In this document: positions 1-20,000 of the stretch, piece after piece
Layout: each line of letters begins with the position of its first letter
Numbering within the stretch: the first letter of the stretch is position 1
Source: Chiloscyllium plagiosum
Lineage: Eukaryota
DNA: 20,000 bases
Assembly: GCF_004010195.1 (NCBI RefSeq)
Contig: NC_057718.1
Coordinates: forward strand, 91,119,923 to 91,139,922
Direction: 5' to 3'
Position numbers and translations under genes: made by a program
Notes under the pieces: generated by a model
The model's database searches: none
What the model was told of the DNA's origin: nothing
What the model saw: the letters and a program-made list of their open reading frames with translations, nothing else

Positions 1-1248
1 AAGTGTGGTTTGTTTGCGGGTTTTCTTTTACCATATGACAAACAAGTTAGATGTGCAAGAGGCAAAATAGACTGGTATTAGGCTCATGATAGGGGAACAC
101 ATTTAAGTCCATTGTGCTGTTGTGCAGAAACCCTGTGCGTCAATACAGAACAGCCCCAGGAGTTTAATCAACACATCACTGACTCAAAGTACAGCTGTTC
201 TGCTGCATGAGTCACAGTTTTAGGCACCATCACTGAGTGCAGGCTTAGTGTGTTTGTACGCTTAACCATAGTATTTTAACTTTAAAATATGTCCACAAAC
301 AACAGGGTTCAGCTTCAATTATTTGGAATGTCTACTATTTAATCTTTCCCCATTCTGTAGAAACAAAACTGCTTGCTGTCATTAGGTTAAGTGACTTTGC
401 TCTCAGAGCCCAGCTCTCTATTAGTATTGGCTAATGGTGATGTTTTAGGGGTAGGAAGGCTGTTGGAGACAGAGAAATCAATTGCAGCCTGGGTGGAATT
501 CTTCATTTGTGTAAACAGGAAGATAATCCTGGCCTCAGTGCAATCAAGCGGATTTATTGGATTTCAGTCCTGACTCATGGGTGCAGTGCTGTGGAAACAC
601 AATTCTTTGAAAGGTTTTAAAGAGTGGGAACAGTGCATCAGAAGCACCCCATTTTCTGCAGCTGCTTCCCCTTAGTAAAACCTGAAAATATATTTTCTTT
701 TACGGGCTCTATCATAATCGCTAGTCAAGGACCTGTGTGGAGATTGCTCAGCTGATGCTCTCTACATTAAGCGTATGTAATTATCAAATCATACTTTTCT
801 TGAGTATCTTATGGTAATGGGCCGGAGGAGTGGCAGGGGTGGGGTGACCCAGCTCTTCTGCTTTTTCGAGGAGGTGGATTGAGATTGGCAGGTTCATCAT
901 CGCCCTGTGCCTGCCTCCAGTTTAACTTCATCCTTAAATCTAAAAGATCTCAGGCTGGTTTCCCTGAGACTGCAAGAAACCTGACAGTCAAAGGGAGACA
1001 AGGACCGTCCCATCCTTTATTGGGAGCTAGAGGGAACGTAACCACTTTCCCTTGCCTCCATGTGATGGGAATCTGATGATGATGCAATGAATCAACCCAC
1101 AAAATGAATCCCGTGTTCAGTCGGGCACAAGATTCCTTGGGTCCACTGAGCCTTTCTTAGGTGGCTGGAGATTAGATAAAACCATTCTATGCAATTGGAG
1201 AATGGGAGTCAGGGGCAGTGCGTGTATGGAGTGAACCAACATGAGGGT

Positions 1249-1588
1249 CATATAATCCCCACATTGTGGAAACAGGCCCTTCGGCCCAACAAGTCCACAC
1301 CAACCCTCCGAAGTTTTCCATTTCCCTACCCTGTTAGTCTGCATTTACCCCTGACTAATGCACCTAATCTACACATCCCTGAACACTATGGGCAACTTAC
1401 TGTGGTCAATCCACCCTAACCTGCGCATCTTTGGACCGTGGGAGGAAACCAGAGCACCTGGAGGAAACCCACGCAGACATGGGGAGAATGTGCAAACTCC
1501 AGACAGACAGTCGCCCAAGTCTGGAATCGAACCCAGGTCCCTGGCGCTGTGAGGCAGCAGCACTAACCACTGAGCCACCATGCTGCCC
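1249..1588 (-). mobile_element. HE1-type (V-SINE) tRNA-derived SINE, near full length
   Basis: Minus strand begins GGGCAGCATGGTGGCTCAGTGGTTAG. Pol III A box TGGCTCAGTGG (1567-1577) and B box GGTTCGATTCC (1523-1533). The central domain and CR1-like tail (GGGCCGAAGGGCCTGTTTCCACA) are shared with copies at 7981-8257 and 18889-19199. Confidence 0.9.
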
Positions 1589-5766: not shown

Positions 5767-7227
5767 ATTTATATCATCCACAGCCATGGGCGAGGTGTCA
5801 GAAGACTGGAAGATGTCTAATATTGTGCCTTAATTTAAGAAAGGTTGCAAGGAAAAGCCAGGTAATCAAAGACTGGTGAGTCTAATGTCAGTGGTGGGTA
5901 AGTTGTTGGAAAGGATTGATAGACTGGATTTACATACATTCAGAGAGGCAAGGACTGCTTGGGAATAGTCAGTCTGGCTTTGTGCATGGGAAATCATGTC
6001 TCACAAACTTGATTGAGCTTTTGGAGGATGTGACCAAGAAGGTGGATGAGGGCAGAGCAGTTGATATTGTCTACATGGACTTTAGCAAGGCCCTCAACAA
6101 GGCTCCATATGCTTAGTAAAGTTAGATCATATGGGTTCCACGATGAACTAATCAGTTGGATCCAAAATTGGTTTGACGGTAGGAAACAGAGGATTGTGGT
6201 AGAGGGTTGTTTTTCAGACAGGAGGCCTGTGATCAGTGGTGTTCTGCAGGGATCGGTACTGGGTTCACTGTTGTTTGACATTTATATAAAGGGTTTGGAA
6301 GAGAATATCGGAAGCGTGGTTATTATGTTTGCAGTTGACATCAATATTGAGGTATGGTGGACAGTGAACAAAGTTATCTAATGTACAATGAGATCTTGAT
6401 CAGCTGAGCCAGTGGGCCAAGGAGTGGCAGATGGAGTTTAAATTGGATAAATGTGAGGTGCTGCATTTTGGTATGACAAACCAGAGCAGGATTTACACAG
6501 TTAATGGTAGGCCCCTGGGGAGGTTGTTGAACAGAGATACCTAAGTGTTCAGGTACACAGTTCCTTGAAAGTGATACCACAAGTAGACAGGGTGGTGATG
6601 AAGGCATTTGGAATGCTTGTCTTCATGGAGCATTGAGTATAGGAGTTGGGAGGTCATGTTGCAACTGTACAGGACATTGATGAGGCCACTTTTGCAATAT
6701 TGCATATCGTTCTGGTCACCCTGCTATAGGAAGGATATTATTAAATTAGGAGGGTGCAGAAAAGATTTACAAGGATGTTGCCATGATTGGAGGGTTTGAG
6801 TTATAAGGAGAGGCTGACTATGCTGGGATTTGTTTTACCTAGAGCATCGGAGGTTGAGGACTGACCTTATAGATATTTAAAATAATCATGAAGGGCATAG
6901 GTAAGGTGAATAGCAAAGGTCTATTCTGAATATAGGACAGTTCAAAACTAGCGGGCATAGTTTAAAGTGAGAGGGGAAAGAATTAAAAGAGACCTGAGGA
7001 GCAATGTTTTCATACACCAGGAAGTGCAAGAATGGAATGAACTGCCAAAGGAGGTGATAGATGTAGGTACAGCTACAACATTTAAGAGACATTCGGACAA
7101 GTGTACGGATGGGTAAGATTTAGAGGCATATGGGCCAAATGGGGCTAGTTTAGTTTGGGAAACCTGTTTGACATGGACAAGATGAACTGAAGGGGCTGCT
7201 TCTGTGTTGTATGGCTGCATGGCTCTA
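5767..7227 (+). mobile_element. HER1/CR1 LINE, 5'-truncated, RT domain plus 3' UTR
   Basis: Broken ORF2: EDWKMSNIVP, SQSGFVHGKSCLTNLIE, AVDIVYMDFSKA, WIQNWFDGRKQRIVVEG, SGVLQGSVLG, MFAVD (FADD), LYRTLMRPLLQYCISFWSP. Ends in a CR1-type tail TCTGTGTTGTATGGCTGCATGGCTCTA. Confidence 0.93.
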
Positions 7228-7980: not shown

Positions 7981-8257
7981 TCTGGAGTTTGCATATTCTC
8001 CCTGTGTCTGCGTGAGTTTTCTCCGGGTGCTCCGGTTTACTCCCAAAGTCCAAAGAATTGCAGATTATGTGGATTGGCCACACTAAATTGGCGGAGTGTC
8101 CAGGGATGTGCTGACTAGGTGGGTTAGCCATGGTAAATGCAGGGTTACAGGGATAGGATAGTGGTATGGGTCTGAGTTGGACGTTGTTCGGAAGGTCAGT
8201 GTACACTCGATGGACCGAATGGCCTGCTTCCACACTGTAGGGATTCTATTGATTCTA
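7981..8257 (+). mobile_element. HE1-type SINE lacking its tRNA head
   Basis: TGGAGTTTGCATATTCTCCCTGTGTCTGCGTG...CTCCGGTTTACTCCCA...GATGGACCGAATGGCCTGCTTCCACACTGTAGGGATTCTAT matches the reverse complement of 1249-1500. Confidence 0.88.
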
Positions 8258-10742: not shown

Positions 10743-11174
10743 GGTCAATCAGAGCTGGATTTATGCACTTAATAGTATGGTCCTGGGGAGTGTTTGTGAA
10801 CAAAGAGACCTTGGAGGACAGGTTCATAGTTCCTTGAAAGTAGAGTCACAGGTAGATAGGATAGTGAAGAAAGCGTTTGGTATGCTTTCCTTCATTGGAC
10901 AGACCATTGATTATAGGAATTGGGAGGTCATATGCGACTGGACAGGACATTGGCTAGGCCACATTTGGAATATTGCAAGCAATTCTGGTCTCCTTCCTAT
11001 CGGAACAATGTTGTGAAACTTGAAAGCATTCAGAAAAGATTTACAAGGATGTTGCCAGAGTTGGAAGGTTTGAGCTATAGGGAGAGGCTGAACAGGCTGG
11101 GGCTTTTTTCCTGGAGTGACAGAGGCTGAGGAGTGACCTTATAAAGATTTATAAAATGATGAGGGGCATGGATA
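10743..11174 (+). mobile_element. HER1/CR1 ORF2 C-terminal fragment
   Basis: EQRDLGGQVHSSLKVESQVDRIVKKAFGML and RTLARPHLEYCKQFWSPSYR...LESIQKRFTRMLPELEGLSYRERLNRLGLFS. Paralogous to ~6475-6900. Confidence 0.92.
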
Positions 11175-12419
11175 CTCCAGGAAATCTTTAAATCTTTAAA
11201 GAGGGGCTGTGCAGCCAGATACCTGCATGGGTATTGCAGGCTGTCTTTGATTTCTGCACCCAAACCCTTGACCAAGAACATCTCCCTTGACCTGACTGAG
11301 GACTACTCACCTTAGGCTTTGGCAATGGCCATTTGCTTGAAACCCATGCAATGCATTTGCCACCTACACTGCGGGCACATGGTATAGGTATGAAATTGAT
11401 ATAACATGGTGCCATCCAACAACATATTCACACACTTGACTGATGACTACTGACAACTGCGACCAGATGCCTGGCTTTGTATCCACACTAAAAGGCAAGA
11501 AATACTAGCAGCCTGATATCTCTGATTGTGGGGCAAAGAGATAAGTGGCAAGGCAGACATATTGTGAGCATCCAGGTAGGTACTGAGTTGATGAGTGCTA
11601 AGAGAGCAAAAGTGCAGCCCCTGAGAGATTGCCTGAGACAGTCTGTGAGCTGGCTGCCTGTCCCTCTGCTCAAAGTGTCTTTGTAGGAGCACTCCATTGA
11701 CAGTTGGTAAAGTGCAGCACTAATGAGCTTTAAGTGGATCAGAGACTTGACATAGTGGTACAGAGGGGCTGACATGTGTCAGATGCCACTGTTTGTGGAA
11801 GTGGGATGTGTGCAGTTGTTACCTATAGAGTTTGCTCTGAGACATTAGAGAACCATAGTGTCATAGAGCCCTACAGCACGGAGACAGGACCTATGTCGAA
11901 ACTGGTCCATGCCGACCAAAGTGTCCATCAACACTAACCCCATTTCCCAGCACTTTGCCAATATTCTTCTGAACATTTCCTATGCATGTATTTGTCCAAA
12001 TGCCTTTTTAAATGCTGTTAATGTACCTGCCTCAACCACTTCTGCTGGCAGCTCATTCTATATGTGTACCACCATCTATGTAAAAAAGTTACCCCTCAGT
12101 TTCCCTTTTATTATTTTCCCTCTAACCTTAAACTGATGCCCTCTAGTCCTTGATTCCCCAACCGTGGGAAAAATACTGAGTGCATTTACCTTATACATAC
12201 CTCTCATGGTCTTATACCCCTCTATAAGGTCCCCCCGAGTCTCCTACAGTCTGAAGAAATAAGTCATAATTTGTCCAACCCCTTCCTATAACTCAGACCA
12301 TTGAGTCCTGGCAACATCCTTGTAAATTTCTTCTGCACTCTTTCTAGTTTAATAACACCTTTCCTATAACAAGGTGACCAAAACTGAACACAATACTCCA
12401 AGTGTGGCCTCATCAACTC

Positions 12420-12613
12420 TTGCTGGAACAGCACAGCAGGTCAGGCAGCATCCAGGGAACAGGAGATTCGACGTTTCGGGCACAGGCCCTTCTTCAGGGC
12501 CTGTGCCCGAAACGTCGAATCTCCTGTTCCCTGGATGCTGCCTGACCTGCTGTGCTGTTCCAGCAATAAAGTTTCAACTTTGATCTCCAGCATCTGCAGA
12601 CCTCACTTTCTCC
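12420..12613. mobile_element. Palindromic Penelope-derived mini-element (hairpin + tail) with TSD
   Basis: Perfect 71 bp inverted repeat 12420-12490 / 12496-12566 with loop TCTTC, then a ~47 bp tail. Flanked by direct repeat CCTCATCAACTCTTG (12408-12422 and 12612-12626; the ends overlap the element). Confidence 0.88.
12468..12498 (-). ncRNA. Minimal type I hammerhead ribozyme-like motif
   Basis: Minus strand C-CTGAAGA-A-GGGC-CTGT-GCCC-GAAAC-GTC-GA: CUGANGA box, 4 bp stem II, GAAA box, palindromic ACGT stem III, GUC triplet. Stem I is essentially absent (1 bp). Confidence 0.55.
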
Positions 12614-12835
12614 TCATCAACTCTTGTACAACTGCAACATAACCTCCCAACTTCTATACTCAGGGCCCTGACTAAAGTCAGTGTGCCAAAAGCTGTCTTG
12701 ACTACCTTATCTACCTGTGACTCCACTTTCAGAGAACCATGCACTCGAACTCCAAGATCCATCTGTTCCACTACACTCCTTAAGGCCTTACCATTCACCA
12801 TGGAACTCCTGCCTTGATTTGACTTACCAATGCTG

Positions 12836-12919
12836 CCTGGATGCTGCCTGACCTGCTGTGCTGTTCCAGCAATAAAGTTTCAACTTTGATCTCCAGCATC
12901 TGCAGACCTCACTTTCTCC
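12836..12919 (+). mobile_element. Half copy (tail-bearing arm) of the hairpin mini-element
   Basis: 84 bp identical to 12530-12613. Confidence 0.88.
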
Positions 12920-13669
12920 CCCAAGTCTTCATGTCTTTCTCTACAGCAAACAGAGGAGAATTATTCATTGAGGACCTCTTTCGTTTCCTGCAATTCTACA
13001 CGCACATGTCAACTTTGAACCTTGAGGGGCACTAATCTCTCTCTAGTTATTCTTTTTACTTTAATATATTTAAAGAACCTCTCTAAATTCACCCTAATCT
13101 TCTCAGCCAAGGCCATCTCGTGTCCCTTTTTCACTCTCTGGATTCCCTTCTTCAGTACACATTTGTTCCAGGTATCCAAGATGGAGATCTGGAAGAGTAA
13201 GGGGTGAGCTGGAGTCTCTCTGGCTTTCATGTCAGGAAGTCTTGGGATCTGATTTCTACTCGGCAGATGTAAGAATAATACAGGGCATATGAATGAGGTG
13301 AGATTAGTAGTGAGGTTAATAATCTCTATTAAAAAGCCTCTCGCCACTTACTAGAGAGAATCTCATCTCAACAAATGTGACTCATTGCTCCTGACATTGA
13401 GAAGGGCAACACTTGATCCTAATGTAATTCTCCTGAATTTCTCATCATAGTGCATAGTGTTCAGGAGCTATATTCCTGGCCCTTGGTTTAGATGCTTCCA
13501 TCTTCTTCAATAGTGGACACCTCTCTCATCAGTGTTCAGAACTTCCTCTAGGTGTCTGATGTCCTGATCCCTTAGACAGATAGATGTTGGCTGCAAACGT
13601 AATGTGGGGAAGTTCATTTGTGAAGTGGATAAAATGTGTCAATGTCAGAACTGAGCCCTGAGGTGGATT

Positions 13670-13875
13670 AAGTGAGGTCTGCAGATGCTGGAGATAAGAG
13701 CTGAAAATGTGTTGCTGGAAAAGTGCAGCAGGTTAGGCAGCATCCAGGGAACAGGAGAATCGACGTTTCGGGCATAAGCCCTTTCCTGAAGAAGGGCTTA
13801 TGCCCGAAACGTCGATTCTCCTGTTCCCTGGATGCTGCCTGACCTGCTGCGCTTTTCCAGCAACACATTTTCAGC
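13670..13875. mobile_element. Palindromic Penelope-derived mini-element (tail + hairpin) with TSD, second subfamily
   Basis: 84 bp inverted repeat 13700-13783 / 13792-13875 with 2 mismatches, and tail 13670-13699. Flanked by AGCCCTGAGGTGGATT at 13654-13669 and 13873-13888. Confidence 0.9.
13784..13815 (+). ncRNA. Minimal type I hammerhead ribozyme-like motif
   Basis: TC-CTGAAGA(13786-13792)-A-GGGC-TTAT-GCCC-GAAAC(13806-13810)-GTC-GA. 2 bp stem I (TC/GA) and palindromic ACGT. Confidence 0.6.
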
Positions 13876-14605
13876 CCTGAGGTGGATTGTTTTTCCAGGA
13901 GCTCCAGGAATGTTTTCCTTTGGATGCTGATGCCCTCTGAGCAGAAGATCCCCGGTCCATGGTCACCTTTGAATAGGACCAATGACAATTGGTTGAATAG
14001 GTTTGGAGACCATTCTCAATGCAGGTGCTGACTTTTGAGCATTTGATCACAGCAACTACAATTTATCTTTAAACCTGCTTGATAACATTCTGGATTAACG
14101 CAATGGTGAGGGCACTCCCTTTTAGGATAAGCCTCTTAAGTAATCTGTCTATATAAATTGACAGAGAGATGGAGCTGTGACTAAATGGAAGTTGTCTTTT
14201 TCTCATATTTTGGCAAGGCCAATACCTTTGATATGCATTACCACAAAGACAAGTGTGGAGTGCAGGAAATAGATAAAAGGAAGTTTGTCCCATTCAATTT
14301 GTTATGATCCCAGCTGATGGTAATGCTTGACAAGTCAGATTTCAGTGTGAAACCTGGCTTGATATTATTACGCCTCACCAGGGTAATGTGCTGGAAATCG
14401 AGCCCCAGGAATTTTAGTGTCACATCAAAACTTAATGATTTTCAAAGTCATGTAAAACTCTTCAATTTACCTATCTTTTAGACTTAGGTTGACAGAAAGT
14501 ACAAACAAGGTTTCTGTACTTAACAAACATTCAAAGTTTGTGCGAAGATTTGTAGCTCGGGTGCTCGTTGTTGTGGTTCTGTTCGCCGAGCTGGAAGTTT
14601 TTGTT

Positions 14606-14645
14606 GCAAACGTTTCGTCCCCTGGCTAGGCGACATCATCAGTGC
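14606..14645 (-). ncRNA. Second copy of the same hammerhead motif, in the inverted pseudo-LTR
   Basis: Exact reverse complement of 15962-16001. Confidence 0.75.
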
Positions 14646-14877
14646 TTGGGAGCCTCCTGCGAAGCGCTTCTTTGATGTTTCCTCCGGTGTTTATAGTGGT
14701 CTGTCCCTGCCGCTTCCGGTTGTCAGTTTCAGCTTGTCCGCTGTAGTGGTTGGTATATTGGGTCCAGGTCGATGTGTTTGTTGATGGAGTTTGTGGATGA
14801 ATGCCATGCCTCTAGGAATTCCCTGGCTGTTCTCTGTCTGGCTTGCCCTATGATAGTAGTGTTGTCCCAGTCGAATT

Positions 14878-15607
14878 CAGAGAAACAATAGCCACAGACG
14901 TACAGAACAGAAAACAGGATGCTAAACCTATCAACAAAGATGGCATACTTAAACTACTGGACTTGTGCCTCACAACACACTTCACATTCAACAACCAGAT
15001 ATACGAACAAATCAACGGAACACCCATGGGATCACCAATCTCGGGACACATAGCAGAGGCAGTTATGCAAAGGTTAGAACAAACAGTCCTACCACAAATT
15101 CAACACAAACTCTGGGTCAGATATGTCGATGACACGTTCGTAATCATTAAAAACACGGAAATAGAAAAAACACACCGGACCATCAACGCCACACTCACAG
15201 GAATCCAATTCACGAGAGAAGAAGAAAAGGATAGCCAACTCCCATTCCTAGACGTGATGCTACAGAGAACACCAAACGGAGAATTCACTACAAGGGTATA
15301 CAGGAAAGCCACACACACAGACCAAGTCCTAAACTATGAAAGTAACCACCCCAACACACACAAACGAAGCTGCATCAGGACACTATTCAAAAGGGCCACA
15401 ACACACTGAAGTACACCAGAACTACAAAAAGAAGAAGAGGAACACCTATACAAGGTATTCACCAAAAACGGATACCCGCGCAACTTCAACAACAGATGCC
15501 TAAGAGAAAGACCACGGAACGAGGACATACCACAACCAAAAGGACTAGCCACACTACCATACATCAGCAGCATCACGGAACTGACAGCCAGACTACTGCG
15601 ACCCCGA
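14878..15607 (+). pseudogene. Penelope reverse transcriptase (C-terminal palm + thumb), disrupted
   Basis: YEQINGTPMGSPIS, WVRYVDDTF, LPFLDV, VYRKATHTDQVLNYESNHP. In-frame TGA at 15407-15409, after which the frame continues (..FTKNGYP..LATLPYI..). Confidence 0.92.
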
Positions 15608-15981
15608 GGAAACACTATATAGTACAAACAGGAAGACAGCTAACAATCCGCATCCATGAACATCAACTAGCCATGAAACGACACGACCAGCTATCCTTAG
15701 GAGCCACACACGCAGACAACACGGAACACAAATTTGACTGGGGCAACACTACTATCATAGGGCAAGCCAGACAGAGAACAGCCAGGGAATTCCTAGAGGC
15801 ATGGCATTCATCCACAAACTCCATCAACAAACACATCGACCTGGACCCAATATACCAACCACTACAGCGGACAGCTGAAACTGACAACCGGAAGCGGCAG
15901 GGACAGACCACTATAAACACCGGAGGAAACATCAAAGAAGCGCTTCGCAGGAGGCTCCCAAGCACTGATGATGTCGCCTAG
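15608..15981 (+). pseudogene. Penelope GIY-YIG endonuclease, N-terminal (GIY) half missing
   Basis: KHYIVQTGRQLTIRIHEH...HKFDWGNTTII...AREFLEAW..IN. The YIG motif reads YIV and no upstream VY-x-I-x-C motif is present. Stop TAG at 15979-15981. Confidence 0.88.
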
Positions 15982-16001
15982 CCAGGGGACGAAACGTTTG
16001 C
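15962..16001 (+). ncRNA. Minimal hammerhead ribozyme motif in the Penelope pseudo-LTR
   Basis: GCA-CTGATGA(15965-15971)-T-GTCgCCT-AGCC-AGGgGAC-GAAAC(15991-15995)-GTT-TGC. Stem I GCA/TGC, 6 bp stem II with one G.G mismatch, palindromic AACGTT stem III, GUU triplet. Confidence 0.75.
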
Positions 16002-16424
16002 AACAAAAAATTCCAGCTCGGCGAACAGAACCACAACAACTTAACAAACATTCCTATTTATTACAAAGATGTGGATTCTAGCTACAGTTGACCAGTTATG
16101 AACTGTCAACTCTAACCCCTTTATAACTAGCCTCCTGTACACCCATGCAGGGCAAAAAACAGCTGTGGTGGCTGGAGGAAAAGACTGGGAAGGCAGCTCA
16201 ATAGTCCCTGTCTTTGGAGTTCACTGCATAGGTCCTTTGGGCTCCTCAGGATGTGCTGTTTCTTTATTTTCCTATTCCAGATGTTCTCACTGGTGACTAG
16301 TCCAAAGACCAATCAGCTGCTTGTTGGTGGACAAAGTTCGATTCATATGCATCCCTTAGTTTCAGTTCATCTGCAAACCCTCCCCATCTCTGTTGTTTGG
16401 GTGTACAGCACGTATAATGAGATA

Positions 16425-16752: not shown

Positions 16753-16873
16753 GGAGAAAGTGAAGTCTGCAGATGCTGGTGATTGGAGAGTGTGTTGCTG
16801 GAAAAGCTCAGCAGGTCAGGCATCCGAAGAGCAGGAGAATCGACGTTTCAGGCCAGATCCTGATGAAGGGCTT
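16753..16873. mobile_element. Older, truncated copy of the hairpin mini-element
   Basis: GGAGAAAGTGAAGTCTGCAGATGCTGG tail plus arm ...GAGAATCGACGTTTCAGGC, then the fold-back start CCTGATGAAGGGCTT (CTGATGA at 16860-16866), cut short. Confidence 0.8.
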
Positions 16874-18207: not shown

Positions 18208-18888
18208 ATTAAGTTCTTGTCTTCTGGAGTCCCACATGGAATTGACTGGAGCCCTGGAAAAAAGATTCAAATTGCCAATCGTTTGGAAGGAAGTCTTTCA
18301 AGATTACTAGATGGGTTCATTTAAACTCTGTGTAGAATTGCTGTTTGGGGAACACAGCACTATGTGCATATAGCAATTTGATCCTCGGCCTCTGAACTGT
18401 ATTAAAGATTGATTCAGTGCTTCTGCTCCACTCACACCTCCGCCCTCCCCATTTCTCAACCATCAACCCTCATTATTGAGCAGGGATCCTAGGCCACAAA
18501 ATGAGGACAATAATGTTGTCACTCTCCTAATCGCCTGCATACTCTGTGATTGCAAAGTCTCCCTTGGGAGCTAACATAAACCACGGGCTTCTGTGTGATC
18601 AGAAGAAATAATTCATTTTCATTGCAAGGATTACTATTCAGCATACTCTTAAATTGAAAGGCTTTCCCCAAGGGATATTAATCCAAATAAATATTACTCC
18701 AAAGAAATCTAACTTGCAATATAAACATTTATTTATTGAATAACAGTAAATATAACAATATAACCACTGAAAAGCTTTTTGTCTTACACTGATGACACAA
18801 CAAAAACCAATTTCAAAAGAAACAACAATTTATGCAATATGGAAAACGGGATGCTAATTAACATGTTGTTACAGAGATTACGTGCCTT

Positions 18889-19199
18889 CATAGAATCCCT
18901 ACAGTGTGGAAACAGGTCATTTGGCCCAACAGGTCCACACTGACCTTCCAAGAAGTAACCCACACAGACCTATTTCCTAACCCTACATTTCCCCTGACTA
19001 ATGCACCTAACCTAACCTAGACATCTCTGAACACTATGGGCAATTTAGCCAATTCATCTAGCGTGCACATCTTTGGGCGGAGGGAAGCCCACACAGATGT
19101 GGGGAGGATGTGCAAACTCCACACAGACAGCTGCCTGAGACTGGAATCAAACCTAGGTGCCTAGTGCTGTGATGCAGCAGTGCTAACCACGGTCACCAT
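18889..19199 (-). mobile_element. HE1-type SINE, near full length
   Basis: CATAGAATCCCTACAGTGTGGAAACAGG...GTGCAAACTCCACACAGACAG...GGAATCAAACC...GCAGCAGTGCTAACCAC, colinear with 1249-1588. Confidence 0.9.
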
Positions 19200-19764: not shown

Positions 19765-19801
19765 TAGTTATAGAGTCATAGAGGTATGCAGGACAAAACA
19801 G
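19765..19801 (-). mobile_element. HER1/CR1 extreme 3' tail stub
   Basis: TAGTTATAGAGTCATAGAG..ACAG has the same octamer-type tail as ~11850-11890. Confidence 0.55.
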
Positions 19802-20000
19802 GGGGCGGGGCTGAGGACTGGGTGGGCGGGGCCGGTGGTGGGGCGGGGCCGGCCTTGTGGACGGAGTGGGCGGGAATAGGAGGCGGGGCTGAGACCGGCC
19901 GGTGGGCTGGATGCGCGGGCGACCGTGTTTTGTGAGGGCGGGGCTATCGCGAGGGCGGGCCTGGGCCAAGGGCGGGGCGGGGCGGGGGAATTGGGTGGGT
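19801..20000. promoter_or_regulatory. CpG-rich GC-box cluster, probable edge of a CpG island/promoter
   Basis: Abrupt switch to very high GC with many CpGs. Nine GGGCGG hexamers start at 19803, 19824, 19841, 19868, 19936, 19953, 19970, 19975 and 19980, all on the same strand. Confidence 0.6.

What the first reader, a model, noticed from the sequence alone, without database searches (positions are those of the whole stretch)
12420..13875. Family of ~200 bp hairpin retro-mini-elements with a hammerhead ribozyme core at the fold-back point
Seen: two complete non-coding elements (12420-12613, 13670-13875), each a 71-84 bp near-perfect inverted repeat plus a one-sided tail, with a 15-16 bp flanking direct repeat. 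At the apex each carries CTGAAGA-A-GGGC-N4-GCCC-GAAAC-GTC. The stem II loop differs (CTGT vs TTAT) while the stem and catalytic boxes are constant. Known: PLE pseudo-LTRs carry minimal type I hammerheads with a palindromic stem III thought to act as dimers. Inference: these resemble MITEs but are RT-mobilised ribozyme-bearing units. They are either extreme 5'-truncation products of an autonomous PLE (not the one at 14533, whose tail differs) or a self-propagating non-autonomous family comparable to retrozymes. I cannot tell whether the family is already catalogued.
Basis: partly seen in the sequence, partly recalled or inferred. Interest (0 to 1): 0.78.

Follow-up and report, generated by a model that had tools for sequence, protein, structure and literature searches.

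The report
Run-off hairpin stubs of Penelope retrotransposon
The two 200-base hairpins are real head-to-head end-pieces of a very abundant Penelope-like jumping gene, with many different centres across the genome; they were likely made one at a time when the element's enzyme copied only the first 100-130 bases of its RNA onto both strands of a cut, and their ribozyme motif is predicted to be locked inside the hairpin rather than driving their spread.

Summary
Both hairpins, their one-sided tails, 15/16-bp duplications and minimal hammerhead cores are confirmed. The arm is the terminal repeat of a Neptune-type Penelope-like element (PLE): it follows an RT/GIY-YIG frame and 3'UTR, and its tail runs into the ORF start. 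At least 4,793 such hairpins exist. They are not one self-copying family: 70 different junctions in 85 pairs, and common junctions recur in both subfamilies at microhomologies. The unusual feature is that 111 of 289 arm 5' ends fall in 7 bases at an initiator-like site just before the ribozyme; only 7 fall at its cleavage site. A neighbouring Poseidon-type family shows no such peak (1 of 50). Best reading: run-off cDNAs from two internal RT start sites, primed on both strands of a staggered cut and joined by microhomology. The start site is inferred; RNA reads showed no start pile-up. The layout is published; I did not find the run-off signature in print. This scan noted the same thing in 65 findings from at least 13 genomes.

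The parts
12408..12422 (+). Element 1 left target-site duplication (15 nt)
   Evidence: the host is an old CR1-like LINE piece whose paralogue at 6660-6745 holds the site once (D5/I12/I15; LINE label recalled)
12420..12498 (-). Element 1 tail-less arm, parent positions +4..+82
12470..12497 (-). Element 1 complete minimal hammerhead core (loop CTGT); helix I mostly lost
12496..12615 (+). Element 1 tailed arm, +12..+131; joined to the other arm through a 3-nt AGG microhomology
12612..12626 (+). Element 1 right target-site duplication
12836..12919 (+). Solo tailed copy of the same subfamily, +46..+129, no hammerhead
13654..13669 (+). Element 2 left target-site duplication (16 nt)
13670..13783 (-). 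Element 2 tailed arm, +11..+124
13783..13880 (+). Element 2 tail-less arm, +2..+99
13786..13813 (+). Element 2 complete minimal hammerhead core (loop TTAT), GUC ends at 13813
13873..13888 (+). Element 2 right target-site duplication
16753..16873 (-). Older, more diverged copy: tailed arm +21..+129 plus a short opposite piece with CTGATGA at 16860-16866
14533..16040 (+). Separate Poseidon-type PLE copy with the same anatomy (311-nt inverted arms, one-sided tail, 15-nt duplication, own hammerhead core 15965-15998); used as control, not the parent

Best explanation
The hairpins are head-to-head insertions of the terminal repeat of a Neptune-type Penelope-like retrotransposon, likely made independently as run-off copies of the first 100-130 bases of the element's RNA. 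Shown: the parent order is ORF (RT, Cys linker, GIY-YIG), 3'UTR, CTC[A]TTC site (+1), hammerhead (+1..+36), arm, tail (+95..+130), ORF start; arms have two 3' ends and one sharp 5' edge. Inferred: transcription starts at +1; the endonuclease makes a symmetric cut with 14-16-nt 3' overhangs; RT primes on both ends, starting inside the RNA at about +95 on one strand and +130 on the other; both cDNAs run off the nearby 5' end and are joined through 1-4-nt microhomologies. The uncleaved RNA is the likely template, and the ribozyme is a passenger that the finished hairpin would sequester.
For: Parent link: EN C-terminus, 3'UTR and arm contiguous in both subfamilies; 31 of 50 EN loci (some fetched twice) have an arm 300-800 nt downstream; L175 has one frame from the YIDD RT core (32% to the window's Pfam-confirmed RT, E 6e-10) through CX4CX2C to GIY-YIG (E 2e-4, just under Pfam's cut-off); tail continues into an ORF of at least 260 residues in L272, 558 exact tail-to-ORF sites. 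5' ends: 111 of 289 at -2..+5, 5 at -10..-3, 26 longer; unselected arms 63 of 132; 79 raw RNA reads with mixed loose ends at +1. 3' ends cluster at +91..+100 and +125..+135; 79 of 86 pairs have the tail on one arm only; 13-20-nt duplications in 70 of 86 against 2 of 282 random pairs. Overlap of 2 nt or more in 42 of 59 direct joins against 16% by chance. G-rich, C-poor flanks on both strands. At least 6 of 30 tail-to-ORF loci join an ORF-start piece straight to +1/+2 of the next arm. In vitro precedent: a lizard PLE cuts and extends both strands from two internal sites and does not need ribozyme cleavage (PMC11167929). Drosophila Penelope has an internal promoter in its pLTR (PMC2377424).
Against: The start site is not shown: one search found no place where many RNA molecules begin, and run X20 laid no reads. 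An extra G (cap copy) before +1 was seen in 14 of 26 ends but only 5 of 14 solo ends, so it is inconclusive. [quoted passage not shown] Long copies are under-counted: 21 of 310 arms run into N gaps and raw-read depth upstream of +1 is still about 30% of that inside (100 vs 339). No intact full-length copy was recovered. Short fold-back inserts at some junctions show that snap-back also occurs.
Confidence: 0.7

Rival explanations
1. Short copies propagate themselves as a SINE-like non-autonomous family: solo or hairpin copies that start at +1 keep an internal promoter, are transcribed and are copied in trans by the PLE protein.
For: Short copies outnumber long ones in the assembly; two junction types make up 24 of the first 50 hairpins listed (hand tally); PLE termini can act in trans (PMC3846280); 2 of 8 common haplotypes (6 copies) had no long counterpart.
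Against: The common junctions occur in both subfamilies and sit on microhomologies; 131 of 137 short copies share a haplotype with long copies; some 3' ends and tandem joins carry parent sequence beyond the tail, which short copies lack.
Confidence: 0.13
2. One cDNA folds back on itself and makes the second arm by self-priming (snap-back), rather than two separately primed cDNAs.
For: Short fold-back inserts at junctions such as L127, L240, L241; recurrent junctions match small hairpins in the cDNA end; self-priming was proposed for rotifer PLE palindromes (PMC3846280).
Against: In both window elements the tail-less arm carries the fuller 5' end, and 45 of 88 tail-less arms end at -2..+5 against 25 of 82 tailed arms; a tail-less cDNA cannot template its partner's tail. 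The fixed tail-less end near +95 also occurs in solo copies.
Confidence: 0.1
3. Ribozyme-driven retrozyme: self-cleavage and circularisation create the template.
For: The core is conserved across subfamilies, with variation at N7 and loop II; short tandems with a 224-nt period exist; animal retrozymes derive from PLE ends (bioRxiv 10.64898/2026.07.22.740005).
Against: 7 of 289 ends at +31..+35, no more than background; head-to-head, not tandem; stem II probability 0.00 in the hairpins; the tandem units seen are of mixed lengths.
Confidence: 0.04
4. MITE of a DNA transposon.
For: Small, palindromic, high copy.
Against: Variable 13-20-nt duplications, asymmetric ends, variable centres, continuity with RT/GIY-YIG copies.
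Confidence: 0.01

Closest known systems
Complex insertions of endonuclease-positive PLEs: inverted 5'-truncated pLTR, 30-40-bp tail at one end, target duplication (PMC8557442, PMC3846280; passages read)
   Same: Head-to-head arms, one-sided tail, duplication, microhomology joins, palindromes at the junction.
   Different: Here the ORF-free minimal form dominates the assembly and 5' ends stop at one site; duplications are mostly 14-16 nt (8-10 nt in the rotifer cases read).
Minimal type I hammerheads of metazoan PLEs (PMC4209133; results and discussion read)
   Same: No helix III beyond a palindromic ACGU, extra base between positions 9 and 10.1, G10.1-C11.1 pair, 4-bp helix I; opposite-strand pairs from truncated PLEs were already noted there.
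   Different: Stem II is 4 bp; helix I begins exactly at the inferred RNA 5' end; in the hairpin copies the fold is predicted to be occluded.
Poseidon_Ac internal initiation (PMC11167929; main text read)
   Same: Two RT start sites defining the tail; both strands cut and extended; uncleaved RNA used.
   Different: Neptune-type parent; tail lies upstream of the ATG rather than inside the ORF; G-rich flanks rather than an ATT motif; genomic run-off products not described there.
Non-LTR retrozymes (bioRxiv 10.64898/2026.07.22.740005; first fifth and passages read)
   Same: Short, non-coding, hammerhead-bearing, PLE-derived.
   Different: Retrozymes are head-to-tail tandems with at least two intact ribozymes; these are head-to-head with one occluded core.

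Membership tests
EN+ Penelope-like element insertion | Terminal repeat linked to an RT + C-terminal GIY-YIG ORF | tested here: met
   (in pieces; no intact full-length copy recovered)
EN+ Penelope-like element insertion | 30-40-bp tail on one end of an inverted pair | tested here: met
   79 of 86 pairs
EN+ Penelope-like element insertion | Variable 5' truncation, tandem and inverted forms | tested here: met
Neptune/Nematis clades | CX2-5CxxC linker between RT and EN (PMC8557442) | tested here: met
   CX4CX2C in L132, L175, L035
Neptune clade proper | RT phylogeny | not tested
   no tree built; Neptune rather than Nematis rests on its being reported from vertebrates
Minimal type I hammerhead | CUGAnGA, extra base, G-C stem II, GAAA, palindromic 15.2/16.2, GUH | tested here: met
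Minimal type I hammerhead | Self-cleavage as dimer or with protein help | not testable with these tools
   needs an assay; fold prediction says occluded in the hairpins
Non-LTR retrozyme | Head-to-tail tandem units each with a complete ribozyme | tested here: not met
   window elements are head-to-head with one complete core
Non-LTR retrozyme | Unit ends or circular RNA defined by the cleavage site | tested here: not met
   7 of 289 ends at +31..+35; one search listed no joint or end pile-up in raw reads, in a library poorly suited to it
MITE | Fixed short duplication and symmetric fixed termini | tested here: not met
Self-propagating non-autonomous family | Inherited structure and own lineage separate from autonomous copies | tested here: not met
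   small sample, five diagnostic sites only

The most novel reading that the evidence does not exclude
This Neptune-type family makes a genome-integrating analogue of retroviral strong-stop DNA: its RT starts 95-130 bases from the cap of its own mRNA, so that most insertions are complete copies of the RNA leader, primed on both strands of a symmetric cut. Hundreds of thousands of insertions then map the start site, both RT initiation sites and the cut geometry, and explain the inverted pLTR and tail of Penelope elements; each full leader would also plant a promoter and a ribozyme core in the host genome.
Probability: 0.55. Interest if true: 0.6.

Novelty: new variant of a known kind. Interest (0 to 1): 0.4.

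Why it matters
How Penelope-like elements make their inverted ends and one-sided tail is called unresolved in PMC8557442 and only partly answered in vitro in PMC11167929. A family with about 150-220 arms per megabase gives a large natural record that fixes testable coordinates: a start at +1, RT starts near +95 and +130, and a 14-16-nt symmetric cut. It also warns annotators that MITE-like or pre-miRNA-like hairpins in such genomes can be retrotransposon run-off products, and that a hammerhead motif in a copy is no sign of an active ribozyme.

Tried and rejected
Rfam at E<=1: no hammerhead family. First BLAST-type genome search suggested one fixed junction (most of the 30 loci); rejected as query bias once the junction counted only 83 sites. 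DNA search with a 64-nt query found nothing (common words are skipped). Inverted pairs 2-4 kb apart proved to be N gaps. First automated end-caller mis-anchored several loci and was replaced. Cap-G test inconclusive. Test for arms from different subfamilies: few discordant calls (15 of 275 site comparisons), several due to mis-parsing, uninformative. Core conservation: 22 of 1,730 non-CpG core letters differ against 185 of 6,920 at invariant arm sites, but core CpGs decay at 9-13%, and exact seeds bias the count, so selection on copies is not shown. No RNA holder on record was listed; X20 and X10 laid nothing; contig runs cannot show starts. L162's N-terminal piece matched no Pfam or NCBIfam model. 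Sequence look-up among earlier findings gave nothing. Literature searches showed no paper describing run-off ends or these hairpins in sharks, judged from listings and the seven papers opened; the 2017 RNA Biology paper on dimeric PLE hammerheads is not held, supplements were not read, and Dfam/Repbase were not available, so cataloguing is unknown.

Full report
Observation. Both elements are in the sequence as described: arms of 71 nt (100%) and 87 nt (97%), a one-sided tail, and flanking repeats of 15 and 16 nt. One complete hammerhead core is present per element, on the minus strand in element 1 (12470-12497) and the plus strand in element 2 (13786-13813). Rfam has no matching hammerhead model at E<=1. 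The motif fits the minimal PLE hammerhead of PMC4209133. That the host is a shark is my inference from recalled repeat content and from earlier scan notes; I did not determine it.

Parent. An exact 33-mer made of the core plus its native upstream bases occurs 11,167 times; the tails of the two subfamilies occur 16,150 and 10,509 times. Upstream of the core lies a pyrimidine-rich 3'UTR of about 250 nt and then the end of a GIY-YIG frame, in both subfamilies. Of 50 EN loci (some fetched twice), 31 have an arm 300-800 nt downstream and most others have one a little nearer or farther. L175 holds one frame from the RT core through a CX4CX2C linker to GIY-YIG; that linker marks Neptune and Nematis (PMC8557442). 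Beyond the tail the sequence continues into an ATG and ORF (558 exact sites). No intact full-length copy was recovered, because long inverted copies are N gaps in this assembly. The element at 14533-16040 is a different, Poseidon-type family with the same anatomy.

Ends. I set +1 at the A of CTC[A]TTC, four bases before the core; the resemblance to an initiator consensus is recalled. One search examined the loci chosen by tail match, 20 random 10-kb stretches, and the other 10-kb stretches fetched around listed hits (13 of them around matches to the core-plus-upstream pattern, which favours longer arms). It found 352 insertions and kept 224 (128 dropped for low identity or not reaching +85), giving 310 arms, 21 running into N gaps. 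Of 289 resolved 5' ends, 111 lie at -2..+5, 55 at +6..+16, 17 at +17..+30, 7 at +31..+35 (the cleavage site is +32/+33), 23 at +36..+60, 45 beyond +60 (partly split alignments), 5 at -10..-3 and 26 farther upstream. Unselected arms agree: 63 of 132 at -2..+5, 6 long, 8 in gaps, at 150-220 arms per Mb, mostly from one contig. As a control, the neighbouring Poseidon-type family has the same two 3' ends but only 1 of 50 resolved 5' ends within -10..+5 of its core. In raw RNA run X19, 1,291 reads were laid, 91% running on into unlike sequence, and 79 have mixed loose ends at +1. This confirms copy ends at +1 independently of the assembly, but it is read-through of genomic copies; no clean start pile-up was found. 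Upstream depth there is about 30% of that inside, so long copies are commoner than the assembly suggests.

Pairs. Of 86 inverted pairs, 79 have the tail on one arm only; 70 have 13-20-nt duplications (2 of 282 random pairs do); 85 resolved pairs show 70 different junctions. Direct joins overlap by 2 nt or more in 42 of 59 cases against 16% by chance; 26 joins carry inserts, some of them short fold-backs. A pattern for hairpins with the apex at the core finds 4,793 sites; by hand tally the first 50 show 21 junction types, the two commonest (13 and 11) occurring in both subfamilies. Element 2's junction occurs 83 times. Of 8 haplotypes with three or more short copies, 6 also occur in long copies, covering 131 of 137 such copies. 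In 61 target sites the three bases outside the duplication are 38-49% G and 3-18% C on both strands, against 21-22% background.

Ribozyme. Across 173 arms, subfamily differences fall on N7, loop II and downstream sites, not on catalytic bases, which points to selection in the parents; CpGs in the core decay at 9-13% in the copies. Stem II is predicted at 0.95-0.98 in the parent leader and 0.00 in both hairpins. In element 1's subfamily helix I is a perfect 4-bp pairing of +1..+4 with +33..+36, so the ribozyme begins at the inferred RNA end. Activity was not tested.

Mechanism. Shown: parent order, two 3' ends, a sharp 5' edge, asymmetric pairs, microhomology joins, symmetric flanks. Inferred: +1 is the transcription start, as for the internal promoter of Drosophila Penelope (PMC2377424); RT starts internally at two sites and extends both target strands, as shown in vitro for a lizard Poseidon element (PMC11167929); because those sites lie only 95-130 nt from the 5' end, the cDNAs run off and are joined head to head. 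At least 6 of 30 loci where an ORF-start piece is joined directly to +1/+2 of the next arm fit template jumps from a physical RNA end. Against: the start is not observed, the cap-G test is inconclusive, the in vitro paper saw no strand difference in start sites, and snap-back inserts exist.

Comparison and novelty. The inverted pLTR, tail and duplication layout is published (PMC8557442, PMC3846280), as are opposite-strand minimal hammerhead pairs from truncated PLEs and PLE-derived retrozymes. These hairpins fail the retrozyme and MITE tests. I found no paper describing the run-off peak (searches; Dfam, Repbase and supplements not seen). I reached my reading, which showed that this scan had noted the same thing in 65 findings from at least 13 genomes; those notes are not independent evidence, and one supplied the lead. 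Verdict: a real feature, a known kind of insertion in an unusually stereotyped form, informative about mechanism; interest 0.4.

Noticed in passing
window 14533-16040: Poseidon-type PLE copy with 311-nt inverted arms, a 34-nt one-sided tail, 15-nt duplication, broken RT and EN frames and its own hammerhead core (15965-15998, GUU site); 2,014 exact tail hits.
   Followed up: yes
L251:1450-2300, L252, L253: Short tandems of leader plus ORF-start pieces, some with a 224-nt period recurring on several contigs; could be a retrozyme-like sub-lineage or repeated template jumps.
   Followed up: partly
L272:475-1490 (minus strand): The ORF N-terminus continues into an Ala/Thr-rich stretch and a 30-nt tandem repeat before an N gap, reminiscent of low-complexity inserts in rotifer PLE ORFs.
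   Followed up: no
parent tail end, +118..+135: The tail ends in a pyrimidine tract followed by AAG, resembling a splice acceptor; in L251 one unit jumps from there to a later ORF segment.
   Followed up: no
window 12256-12930, 10747-11154, 6510-6882: Three old copies of a CR1-like LINE 3' region (label recalled); element 1 and the solo copy are inserted in one of them.
   Followed up: partly
window 1248-1570, 7981-8249, 18888-19190: Three copies of another SINE-like repeat (D4, D10, D13, I9, I11).
   Followed up: no
window 19800-20000: GC-rich stretch with repeated GGGCGGGG boxes, like a CpG-island promoter (D1).
   Followed up: no
L121: A Neptune-type arm joined inside a Poseidon-type inverted insertion, suggesting a template switch or nested insertion between families.
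   Followed up: no
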